This document shows positions 30,001-33,000 of a stretch of 64,000 bases of DNA, piece by piece. Position numbers: made by a program. Source of the DNA: Mobula birostris (lineage: Eukaryota); the NCBI RefSeq assembly GCF_030028105.1, contig NC_092381.1, forward strand, positions 73,186,505 through 73,250,504. Direction: 5' to 3'. Position 1 is the first letter of the stretch. Every line of letters starts with the position of its first letter.

Positions 30001-33000
30001 AGCATAGTACACTGCCCCCTCACTCTCCTCCCACCAAACTGACGCCGTGTGCGTTGCACAGTTCAAATAGGTGCTTACATTTTGAGGTCTGCAAGGAGCT
30101 GAAGGAATGAGAGAAACAGGATAGATAAAGGCTATGTCCGACCTTCAGTTCAGCTGAAGTACATGCATCCAAAACAGCATTCAGTGTTTGTAAGCCTTTC
30201 TTCTGTTCACCAGTGAGAGGGTTTTGGTGAATGAATTATGTGACGTGCAACATTAACAAATCTCGTATGGTTATTATTGTGAACAATCATCGCTTTCAAC
30301 AAAGTCCAGTTTAGATTGTTGTTGTACGAACAACAGTCAAGTCTATTGCGCTTGATAGTTACTTCTAAATTGTGCTGGCCTTTGTGCTTGTGAGGTAGGC
30401 TTGATGAGTAGTAAGTCTTTTCTTGGATTTTGCATATACTGTATGTAAATTCCTACTTTCTTGATGAAATGCACGTGGCTTTTCCGAAGGGATATATTAT
30501 GGTGTCCCAGAAAAGAATGCTGGAGAAAATTAGGTGAATTTTGAAAAGGAAATGTAGCAAGATGGGTAGATTGGTGGTTGAGAGGATTTAATCAACAAAA
30601 TAATGAAAGCTTTTTTGCAACTGAGAAGAGACGACGTGACTAACTGTTGCTGCCTGTGTAGAGAGATATTCTGTGGTTAGAAAATATGCTGAAAGCAGAA
30701 AAGAGAGAAGTTGTCTGACATGGATTGACAGAAGACATGGATATCAAGGGGATGTGCAGATTAGTGCCAAAGGTAATTTATCACAAATAGGTATGAGATA
30801 TTAAATTTCTAGGAAAAATAATAATTGTAAATACACTATTAACAAAGTTCATTATAATTCCAGCGTCTTTTGTCAACACCTTAAAATCTACACTGGTTGG
30901 CGTACCTTGCTGTAAGTTTTACTGTGACAATGAAGCATCAGTTAATAAACTACCTGTTTGAATTTCAACCACTGAGCTCAGAGAATGGTTGCAAGTCTTG
31001 TCGGATGCCACAACATACACAGAATATAACTGGCCACAGAGTAACACGGGTATTCCACATGATGCTTCTGACGTTCCACATGACACAATGCTCCCATCAG
31101 CTCCTTCTGCAATGGCAGTGTACCACAGCGCTCCTTTACTGTAGTCCCACAGAACCAGAGCTGTATTGAGGTTACAATCCAGTTGTACTGTGACATTCTG
31201 TGGCTCACAAGGGACTGAAGATAAGATTGGAAATCAAAAAGAATGTAAGACGAGAGGATCAACTATCGTTGTGAATTTACCAAATATTTACTTTAAGATC
31301 TATGGGCTCTAATGCATCATTCATTAGATGCTTCACTAAATATGTGAATAGATATTTACTTATTTTAGCAATGACTGAATAATTTTAATTATTCTCATTC
31401 CTTATTTCTCAAACTCATCATTGCAGACATTATGTTGAAATCAATATTTATGTCTCTGATCAAAAGGGATTGATGAACAAATTCCCAATGGAGCTGGCTT
31501 CCTCATGCCAGATCACACAAAAGCAGAGCAAAATGATTACAGATTCAACAGGTACAACAGGGCAAGTATAAAATGATGCAGGCTGTTTTCTGTCAAGGTG
31601 ACTCCATCGTCCAGCATCTCGCACACCTCTTATGCTTCTGTTTTTATACAACCATAGAGTCATGCCGACTTTAAGCAATTAAACAACCCATACAAGCATT
31701 AGTACTTTGGATGGGACAGCTTTTTAAAATGCATTTTCATTAAAACGGTCTTCCTTTTTTCTCACGAATCCATAAAGATATCCTCAAAACTTTGGGAATA
31801 GGGTGTTTAATTGATAACCAAGCAACTTTTTGAAAATGTTATTATTTTGCAACACAGAACACTGCATTGTCTGTACCAGCGGGAATATTTTAATTGAAGG
31901 GGGTTTGAAAATGCTTTCCTACAGTTCACACGTTAGGACAAAGGCATGAAAAAATAGAGAGGAATTACATCTGTGGAATCACAACTATGAGTTCAAAAAA
32001 TTAACTTTCAAAGACATCTTCAACATGGGCATAATAAAATAATAACATAAAATGTTTGCTGTTCACACTTAAACATTTAACCTCTCATTGTGAAATACAA
32101 GACTTCATCTGCCAGTCTGTTCTAAACATCTTTACAGAAGTGACTGATGTCTGTATATACATGCACTCTGGAATCTCCTGCAGATGTTACCTTTTGTTAC
32201 AACAGAGACTGTATATGCAGGTTTAGATTTGAGCCCTTGTATCACTTGTATTAAAGACATGACTCTTTAAATGCCTTGAAAAATCATAGTGTATAGCATT
32301 GCTCTGGCAGTCATGTGACCAGGAGGATACTGCATTTGAATCAGAACCTAACTCAGTTGTTAGATTCTCAGCAATGAACAGTGTTACTTGGAATATAATT
32401 TTTCCTACTGGCCCAAAATATGCACAATAATATAAAATTATTTCCTTGTTATATGCTATTTAAAGATTAGCTGTATTTACCAGTTTGTATTTGGACGGAA
32501 GTACTCGAAATGCCATGCCGGCTGTAACTCAGTGTCGTTACGGTTATGTTATAGGACTGTCCGCAGTGTAAATCCAGCATTTCCTGGCGTGTCTCTGTTG
32601 TGTTGTGTGAGCGTATATGACCATCACTTCCCTCAGAGGTCACATCGAACTCTTTTGCTCCATTAGTCCGGCCCCATGAAACTACCACTCTGTTGGAGTT
32701 ACAGTCCACATTGGCGACAATTTCATCTGGAGCACAAGGTGCTATAGAAACAGAAATACTGCAATTAAAAAGTTCATCTGAGAAAAATCTTAAGAAGTAG
32801 CCCTTCCTAATGTTTTATATGAACTTAAATAGTCCTGGTGAATCTGTCCCCTTTATATTCCACATGTTGCCAACTCATATGTTATTGTGTAATCATTTGA
32901 ACAAGTTCTAGCTCGAGTCATTGATAGGTTATGGTCCATATCCACACATATTTAATCTCTCAGTGCTTTCTATATGAACAGTGAATATAACACATGGTTC

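What the first reader, a model, noticed from the sequence alone, without database searches (positions are those of the whole stretch)
32151..32383. Dead M9 exon makes unit U2 an eight-domain unit
Seen: a decayed M9 copy missed by the ORF track sits at the expected position with both splice sites destroyed and frameshifting deletions. Because all exons are phase 1, M8 can splice to the next M1 in frame. The pseudo-exon is heavily diverged while the M9 copies on either side are about 98% alike. It has escaped homogenisation and gives an internal neutral clock showing the units are old. It also breaks the nine-domain register once.
Basis: partly seen in the sequence, partly recalled or inferred. 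Interest (0 to 1): 0.68.

Follow-up and report, generated by a model that had tools for sequence, protein, structure and literature searches.

The report
Dead exon in a ray FN3-repeat gene
One of the repeated domain-coding exons of a giant fibronectin-type-III repeat gene of a ray has decayed into a pseudo-exon, an ordinary kind of event that is nevertheless a useful internal marker of how the other copies are kept alike.

Summary
The window holds a minus-strand array of one-domain FN3 exons, in an FNDC7-like gene of an elasmobranch, probably a ray and not human. All 38 intact exons are 255-261 nt, phase 1-1, and run in a nine-type order M1-M9. At 32151-32383 lies a 233-nt M9 relic (blastn E 6e-32). 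It has 51 of 233 mismatches and five deletions totalling 28 nt. The acceptor AG has become AA and the donor GT has become AC, and stops occur in all three frames. No other relic was found in the window.

M8 (donor at 32481) can join the next M1 (acceptor at 31214) in frame; this is inferred, with no transcript data.

The relic's changes look neutral (dN/dS 0.95; codon positions 22/16/13). Intact M9 copies are 96.6-98.1% alike with dS 0.035-0.063, while M1, M2 and M8 of the same units have dS 0.18-0.66 and the long introns do not align. That pattern fits exon-limited gene conversion, which the relic escaped.

However, the clock dates the relic's last exchange, not the age of the units. Unit age is shown better by the saturated introns and by the same M1-M9 order in sharks. 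This is a known kind of event and of low to moderate interest.

The parts
32151..32383 (-). Pseudo-exon (decayed M9 FN3 exon), 233 nt
   Evidence: Aligns to M9 with blastn E 6.4e-32. It is 76.8-78.1% identical, with 5 deletions totalling 28 nt, and has stops in all 3 frames. dN/dS against the M9 majority is 0.95.
32384..32385 (-). Former acceptor dinucleotide, now AA instead of AG
   Evidence: Alignment with the three intact copies. PWM score is -3.2 against a real minimum of 1.8.
32149..32150 (-). Former donor dinucleotide, now AC instead of GT
   Evidence: Alignment. PWM score is -2.0 against a real minimum of 7.7.
32481..32741 (-). Intact M8 exon of the same unit (261 nt, phase 1-1), the presumed splice donor for the skip
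   Evidence: AG/GT intact. Donor PWM 11.0 and acceptor 9.0. dN/dS against the other M8 copies is 0.10-0.22. It is 93% identical to M8 of Pristis and Hypanus proteins.
31215..32480 (-). Inferred single 1266-nt intron from M8 to the next M1, containing the pseudo-exon
   Evidence: Exon map. The best cryptic donor scores 6.5, below every real donor. The best open in-phase cassette, 32246-32329, has acceptor 3.9 and donor 2.1.
30954..31214 (-). M1 exon of the next unit, the presumed splice acceptor
   Evidence: AG/GT intact, 261 nt. Acceptor PWM 13.0.
42551..42811 (-). Intact M9 exon of the upstream unit
21321..21581 (-). Intact M9 exon of the downstream unit
7508..7768 (-). Intact M9 exon two units downstream
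   Evidence: The M8-M9 intron is 91 of 91 identical to that of the unit at 21582-21678.

Best explanation
The window is part of a very long FNDC7-like gene of an elasmobranch, most like those of rays, on the minus strand. Each exon encodes one cysteine-rich FN3 domain. Nine domain types follow each other in a fixed order (M1-M9), unit after unit. In the second unit of the window the M9 exon has died: both splice signals are gone and five deletions and several stop codons break it. Every exon starts and ends in phase 1. The spliceosome most likely goes from the M8 donor at 32481 straight to the M1 acceptor at 31214, so this unit contributes eight domains and the reading frame is kept. This splicing step is inferred and not shown. 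The other M9 exons are kept nearly identical to each other by short, exon-limited gene conversion. The same holds for M3 and M4. The dead copy no longer takes part in this exchange and has drifted neutrally since then, to about 0.27 substitutions per site. It therefore dates its own last exchange, not the origin of the units, which are older.
For: Gene and family:
- All 9 exon types of one unit hit Pfam fn3 PF00041, with E 5.5e-6 to 0.042; 4 of 9 score above the 25-bit cut-off.
- Single-exon searches return 'fibronectin type III domain-containing protein 7-like' proteins of rays and sharks: 22 hits and 9 hits.
- A Mobula hypostoma protein matches the last units at 92-100% per domain.

Anatomy:
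- All 38 of 38 intact exons are 255-261 nt, flanked by AG and GT, and phase 1-1.

Death of the exon:
- See, as set out in the observation check.

Neutral drift:
- The differences fall on codon positions 1, 2 and 3 as 22, 16 and 13 (chi-square p 0.31).
- dS is 0.282, dN is 0.269 and omega is 0.95 over 73 codons.
- The divergence is spread along the whole relic.

The neighbouring M8 is still constrained:
- omega is 0.10-0.22 and its sites are intact, so it needs a downstream partner.

Homogenisation:
- M9 dS is 0.035-0.063, M3 0.018-0.093 and M4 0.035-0.054.
- In the same units M1 dS is 0.18-0.66, M2 0.18-0.55 and M8 up to 0.56.
- The nearest partner of unit 2 changes with exon type.
- Homology between units ends within tens of bases of the exons, except in the short introns.
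- Paralogous M8 and M9 domains cluster by species in trees: skates 95/95 and 98/95, Narcine 100/99 and 94/93.

Precedent:
- A Narcine bancroftii protein model has M8 followed directly by M1.
Against: - No transcript evidence of any kind is available, so skipping is inferred from sequence alone.
- An open, in-phase 84-nt cassette (32246-32329) exists inside the relic. Its acceptor score (3.9) lies within the low end of the real range. Its donor score (2.1) is far below every real donor, so inclusion of a fragment is unlikely but not excluded.
- The matrices come from only 38 sites.
- The omega interval is wide (0.47-2.08), so some divergence under constraint before death cannot be excluded.
- The relic keeps 'DSNAV' where all ray repeat-type M9 domains have 'LNTI'-like residues. 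'DSNAV' is the state of shark M9 domains; ray terminal-unit M9 domains carry close variants (SNAV, SNAI, SNTV). This does not fit a simple recent descent from today's repeat-type M9.
- Low dS in M9 could in part reflect selection on the RNA rather than conversion; this was not tested.
- Protein models of other species may contain annotation errors.
Confidence: 0.75

Rival explanations
1. The M8/pseudo-M9 block descends from the terminal unit of the array, the one that in other rays precedes the unique C-terminal domains. It was copied into the interior by a segmental duplication or by fusion of two tandem genes. On this reading part of the relic's divergence from the repeat-type M9 is old paralog divergence rather than decay.
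For: - The M8 exon next to the relic carries 'NGAKEF'. This motif is found in 4 of 4 ray terminal-unit M8 domains (Rhinoraja, Narcine, Pristis, Hypanus).
- It is found in 0 of 9 other ray M8 domains (two Narcine copies have 'NGAREF') and in 0 of 7 shark M8 domains.
- The best identity of this exon, 93%, is to the Pristis and Hypanus terminal M8.
- The relic shares 'SNAV' with terminal and shark-type M9.
- Ray terminal M9 domains form a supported clade of their own (99/96).
Against: - AU tests do not decide for M8: p 0.49 with the terminal group and 0.47 with the repeat group.
- AU tests lean against the relic grouping with terminal M9 (log-likelihood 7.95 lower, p 0.10) and towards repeat-type M9 (0.80 lower, p 0.43).
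- The relic has the repeat-type states W, A and CRR.
- omega of 0.95 leaves little room for divergence under constraint.
- No relic of C-terminal or N-terminal exons lies anywhere in the window outside the known exons.
Confidence: 0.15
2. The gene, or one transcript form, ends here. M8 at 32481-32741 is a last coding exon read through into the intron, where a stop follows after three codons. The exons downstream would then belong to another transcription unit.
For: - Reading past the M8 donor gives a stop after three further codons (ORF 32467-32814).
- Three ATTAAA motifs lie in the 1266-nt interval, at 31894, 31811 and 31389.
Against: - The M8 donor is as strong as the others (11.0; real median 12.5).
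- The interval is 66% A+T, so ATTAAA is expected by chance, and there is no AATAAA.
- No start exon or N-terminal domain relic precedes the next M1, and that M1 has a strong acceptor (13.0).
- In other species the array ends with unique C-terminal domains that are absent here.
Confidence: 0.05
3. The relic is still used in part, through cryptic splice sites, as a short alternative cassette.
For: 52 open in-phase AG...GT combinations exist in the interval. The best is 32246-32329 (84 nt), with an acceptor score of 3.9.
Against: - Its donor scores 2.1, and the best cryptic donor in the interval scores 6.5. Both are below all 38 real donors (minimum 7.7).
- The substitution pattern shows no constraint.
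- The fragment would lack the conserved cysteines of the domain.
Confidence: 0.05

Closest known systems
FNDC7 / fndc7b / fndc7rs1-type giant FN3-array proteins of fishes and amphibians, and 'FNDC7-like' models of sharks and rays
   Same: - One FN3 domain per unit of about 86 residues, with the same conserved cysteines.
- The same M1-M9 order occurs in Hypanus, Mobula, Narcine, Rhinoraja, Heptranchias, Heterodontus and Scyliorhinus proteins.
- Protein lengths reach 4000-4800 residues.
   Different: - Here one M9 of the array is a pseudo-exon.
- The M8 next to it carries the motif that in four other rays marks the last unit of the array.
- No function of these arrays is known to me, and 4 literature searches found nothing on them in elasmobranchs (search listings only).
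Super-repeat genes built from tandem domain exons, such as titin A-band 7- and 11-domain super-repeats, nebulin 7-module super-repeats and apolipoprotein(a) kringle IV repeats (recalled, not from a call)
   Same: - A fixed multi-domain register repeated many times.
- Symmetric exon phase allows loss or gain of single exons in frame.
- Copies are kept alike by gene conversion or unequal crossing-over.
   Different: - The domain family and the organisms differ.
- The register here is nine FN3 domains.
- The comparison is by recall only and was not tested here.
Pseudo-exons (exon death) in otherwise functional genes
   Same: - Recognisable homology to a functional exon.
- Lost splice sites and frame-breaking indels.
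- Neutral substitution pattern.
   Different: - Intact paralogous copies of the same exon lie in the same gene.
- This gives an internal comparison of converted copies against an unconverted one.

Membership tests
FNDC7-like FN3-array gene | Domains are fibronectin type III (Pfam PF00041) | tested here: met
   9 of 9 exon translations of one unit hit fn3 as best family, with E 5.5e-6 to 0.042. 4 of 9 reach the 25-bit gathering score.
FNDC7-like FN3-array gene | Closest proteins are those named FNDC7 or FNDC7-like | tested here: met
   20 of 22 hits and 9 of 9 hits carry that name. The names are automatic annotations.
FNDC7-like FN3-array gene | Nine-type domain order M1-M9 shared with other elasmobranchs | tested here: met
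   Domain typing of 25 proteins. Scyliorhinus canicula P0024 has four full M1-M9 units plus a terminal unit.
Pseudo-exon | Significant homology to a functional exon at the syntenic position | tested here: met
   E 6.4e-32. It lies 97 nt after M8, against 91-104 nt in the other units.
Pseudo-exon | Loss of both splice signals and of the reading frame | tested here: met
Pseudo-exon | Neutral substitution pattern | tested here: met
   omega 0.95 (0.47-2.08). Codon positions 22/16/13, p 0.31.
Pseudo-exon | Absent from mature transcripts | not testable with these tools
   No transcript data. No annotated protein spanning this junction was found.
Concerted evolution by gene conversion among tandem exons | Synonymous divergence of some exon types far below that of other exons and introns of the same units | tested here: met
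   M9, M3 and M4 have dS 0.018-0.093, against 0.18-0.66 for M1, M2 and M8. The long introns do not align.
Concerted evolution by gene conversion among tandem exons | Paralogs cluster by species rather than by position | tested here: inconclusive
   This holds for the skate and Narcine M8 and M9 proteins. Only protein models were available, there was no nucleotide data from other species, and lineage-specific duplication is not excluded.

The most novel reading that the evidence does not exclude
The eight-domain unit is ancient. The relic keeps the shark-type 'DSNAV' residues that every sampled ray repeat-type M9 has replaced. Its M8 neighbour carries the motif of the ray terminal unit. The M8/pseudo-M9 block may therefore be a copy of the array's end that was placed inside the array before or early in the radiation of rays. 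It would have been carried as a dead exon for a very long time in slowly evolving genomes. If so, the same relic with the same five deletions should be found across myliobatiform rays and perhaps beyond. That would give a calibrated neutral clock inside a gene undergoing concerted evolution.
Probability: 0.15. Interest if true: 0.55.

Novelty: new member of a known kind. Interest (0 to 1): 0.3.

Why it matters
On its own this is an ordinary case of exon death in a repetitive gene. Its use is as an internal control. The same gene holds M9 copies that still exchange sequence (dS 0.035-0.063) and one copy that stopped (K about 0.27, omega about 1). The ratio gives the relative age of the last homogenisation against the escape. 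The relic also shows that a unit of this array tolerates the loss of M9, the domain type of P0001 closest to its best window copy (99%). It also warns annotators that the nine-domain register is not strict.

Tried and rejected
1. I looked for an annotated protein of this or a sister species spanning the M8-to-M1 junction. Single-exon searches with M8 and with the next M1 among proteins of 152-2000 residues found nothing above 93% and 84% identity. A search among proteins of 1998-5000 residues, using the M8-M9 region of the Hypanus database protein P0001, found only Scyliorhinus among elasmobranchs. The sister-species question stayed open.
The searches were exon by exon.
3. Gene-end or gene-start relics beside the pseudo-exon: tblastn with the C-terminal parts of three ray proteins and with the N-terminal part of a Narcine protein found no convincing match outside known exons. 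In one search the significant hits outside the exon list lie in the truncated M4 exon at 1-107; all other such hits have E 1.5 or more.
4. Trees and AU tests to place M8 and the relic were not decisive, because the domains are short and the relic's branch is long (0.63).
5. Intron identity as a clock: with gap-lenient global alignment the null identity is already about 0.64. The intron figures (0.62-0.76) are therefore near saturation, and I used only the z-scores.
6. Literature: 4 searches gave no paper on these arrays in sharks or rays. I saw search listings only and read no paper. One search failed on a term that was too long and was re-sent.
7. The genome-contig collection holds only bacteria and archaea and was not used.
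8. Structure and complex prediction were not used, because they do not bear on the question.

Full report
**What the window is**

The window has no N. Its minus strand carries a long series of open reading frames that each encode one cysteine-rich domain of about 86 residues. I mapped 38 complete exons and one exon cut off by the window's end. All 38 are flanked by AG and GT, are 255, 258 or 261 nt long, and start and end in phase 1.

The exons fall into nine types that follow each other in a fixed order, M1 to M9. In my numbering, in the direction of transcription:
- Unit 1 runs from M1 at 61854-62114 to M9 at 42551-42811.
- Unit 2 runs from M1 at 40302-40562 to M8 at 32481-32741.
- Unit 3 runs from M1 at 30954-31214 to M9 at 21321-21581.
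- Unit 4 runs from M1 at 18948-19208 to M9 at 7508-7768.
- Unit 5 begins at 3172-3432.

All nine types of one unit hit Pfam fn3 as their best family, 4 of 9 above the curated cut-off. Single-exon protein searches return proteins named 'fibronectin type III domain-containing protein 7-like' from rays and sharks (22 hits, 9). A Mobula hypostoma protein matches units 4 and 5 at 92-100% per domain. The sequence is therefore from an elasmobranch, most likely a ray, and is not human.

**The observation**

The minus strand of 32151-32383 aligns along the whole M9 exon. blastn gives E 6.4e-32 for this region, and no other exon type matches it better than E 0.013.
- Against the three intact M9 exons there are 51-54 mismatches in 233 aligned bases, 76.8-78.1% identity.
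- There are five deletions of 2, 4, 1, 13 and 8 nt, so 233 nt remain of 261.
- The acceptor AG is now AA and the donor GT is now AC.
- On matrices built from the 38 real sites, the two positions score -3.2 and -2.0. The weakest real acceptor scores 1.8 and the weakest real donor 7.7.
- All three frames contain stops.
- The relic lies 97 nt after M8. The intact M8-M9 introns are 91-104 nt.
- A scan with all 38 exons, at protein and at nucleotide level, found no second relic in the window.

The M9 copies on either side are 96.9% alike (8 of 261 differ). The 98.1% value belongs to units 3 and 4.

**Is the unit an eight-domain unit?**

The M8 exon before the relic is intact. Its donor scores 11.0. 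Its dN/dS against the other M8 copies is 0.10-0.22. It is 93% identical to M8 of Pristis and Hypanus proteins. It is therefore still a constrained coding exon and needs a downstream partner.

The next M1 has a strong acceptor (13.0). With phase 1 on both sides, the junction codon would be G plus TC, the same as at every M9-to-M1 junction. The implied intron of 1266 nt lies within the range of the other introns, 91-4232 nt.

Within that interval no GT reaches the score of any real donor; the best scores 6.5. The best open in-phase cassette, 32246-32329, has acceptor 3.9 and donor 2.1. A Narcine bancroftii protein model has M8 followed directly by M1. Other models skip M1, or M5 and M6. Shortened units therefore have precedent, although such models can contain errors.

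All of this is inference from sequence. I had no transcript data.

**Is the relic neutral?**

Its differences from the majority of the three intact copies fall on codon positions 1, 2 and 3 as 22, 16 and 13 (chi-square p 0.31). Nei-Gojobori counts over 73 unbroken codons give dS 0.282, dN 0.269 and omega 0.95 (bootstrap 0.47-2.08). The changes are spread along the whole length. This is the pattern of a sequence without constraint. Most of its divergence therefore arose after it stopped being a coding exon.

**Homogenisation**

- Synonymous divergence between units depends strongly on exon type. It is 0.035-0.063 for M9, 0.018-0.093 for M3 and 0.035-0.054 for M4.
- In the same units it is 0.18-0.66 for M1, 0.18-0.55 for M2 and 0.20-0.56 for M8, apart from the unit 3-4 pair at 0.034.
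- The nearest relative of unit 2 changes from exon to exon: unit 3 for M1, M4 and M6; unit 4 for M2 and M7; unit 5 for M3; unit 1 for M8.
- A self-comparison of the window shows that homology between units stops within tens of bases of the exons. The exceptions are the short M3-M4, M4-M5 and M8-M9 introns. The long introns share only dispersed repeats.
- Units 3 and 4 share a tract over M8, the intron (91 of 91 identical) and M9.
- In protein trees, paralogous M8 and M9 domains group by species: skates 95/95 and 98/95, Narcine 100/99 and 94/93.

Whole-unit recent duplication cannot explain this mosaic. Exon-limited gene conversion or small unequal exchanges can. I could not exclude a contribution of synonymous constraint.

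**What the clock measures**

The relic's distance to M9 (K2P 0.27-0.29) is four to eight times the dS among intact M9 copies. It is about equal to or half of the dS between the neighbouring M8 and its paralogs, 0.32-0.56.

The relic is also far better preserved than the introns around it. Alignment z-scores are 21-24 for the relic. They are 3.6-4.4 for the M8-M9 intron and 0.6-4.6 for the 150 nt downstream, comparing unit 2 with the others.

The relic was therefore kept like the other copies for part of the units' history and then dropped out. Its divergence dates that event, not the birth of the units.

The units are old on two other grounds. The introns are near saturation. The same M1-M9 order is present in shark proteins: Heptranchias, Heterodontus, and Scyliorhinus canicula with four full units. 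From recalled knowledge, elasmobranch nuclear substitution rates are low. A distance of about 0.25 on one lineage would then mean many tens of millions of years or more. I did not calibrate this.

**An unexpected lead**

The M8 beside the relic carries the residues NGAKEF.
- In the 20 M8 domains of other species, this motif occurs in 4 of 4 ray terminal units. These are the units followed by an intact but diverged M9 and then by unique C-terminal domains, in Rhinoraja, Narcine, Pristis and Hypanus.
- It occurs in none of 9 other ray M8 domains (two Narcine copies have NGAREF) and in none of 7 shark M8 domains.
- The relic itself reads DSNAV where ray repeat-type M9 domains read (D/E)(L/M)(N/D)T(I/V), mostly DLNTI or ELNTI. 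Shark M9 domains read DSNAV, and ray terminal M9 domains read close variants of it.
- However, the relic has the repeat-type residues W, A and CRR elsewhere.

AU tests do not decide. M8 fits the terminal group (p 0.49) and the repeat group (p 0.47) equally well. The relic fits repeat-type M9 better (log-likelihood 0.8 lower, p 0.43) than terminal-type M9 (7.95 lower, p 0.10). No relic of C-terminal or N-terminal exons lies in the window.

I keep as a minority reading that this block is an old internal copy of the array's end.

**What stayed unchecked**

- Transcripts of the locus.
- The orthologous interval in sister species.
- Proteins above 5000 residues.
- The ends of the gene beyond the window.
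- The literature gave nothing on these arrays in elasmobranchs. Four searches were seen as listings only, no paper was read, and supplements were not available.

**Verdict**

This is a real and clear pseudo-exon in a tandem FN3-exon array. It very probably makes one unit eight domains long. It is a neat internal control for concerted evolution, but it belongs to a known kind of event.

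Noticed in passing
window 32481-32741 (-): The M8 exon next to the relic carries the NGAKEF motif and 'DEIV'. In four other rays the NGAKEF motif marks the M8 of the last unit of the array, before the unique C-terminal domains; 'DEIV' is shared with two of those four, Rhinoraja and Hypanus. Here at least three more units follow.
   Followed up: partly
window 7505-8148 and 21318-21967: M8, the short intron and M9 of units 3 and 4 are 96.8% identical over 650 nt, and the intron is 91 of 91 identical. The sequence just downstream of M9 does not align. 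This looks like a recent conversion or exchange tract.
   Followed up: partly
window 50613-50870 (-): The M6 exon of unit 1 is 258 nt, one codon shorter than the other M6 copies. It has an unusual start, APCVVKYIS instead of APCAPDNIS or APCAPEHTS.
   Followed up: no
window 15517-15771 (-): The M4 of unit 4 shows more non-synonymous than synonymous change against the other M4 copies (dN/dS 1.2-2.0, from only 2-3 synonymous differences).
   Followed up: no
window 5376-5662: A minisatellite lies in an intron: a 57-nt unit in 5.0 copies with 94% matches.
   Followed up: no
window 52642-52695 and 55719-56395: There is a (CA)27 microsatellite and a cluster of complex tandem repeats with periods of 6 to 66 nt, both in introns.
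   Followed up: no
window 28107-28373, 58874-59149, 60995-61411, 63744-63998 (-) and 10918-11160 (+): Intronic open frames share a motif like FFTQRVV..WN.LP and are mutually similar at about 67-72%. They look like tails of a dispersed retroelement. The family was not identified.
   Followed up: no
proteins P0008, P0002, P0004, P0024 (other species): Annotated models of other elasmobranchs also break the nine-domain order: M8 to M1 in Narcine, M9 to M2 in Narcine and Rhinoraja, and M4 to M7 in Scyliorhinus canicula. Whether these are real or model errors is unknown.
   Followed up: partly
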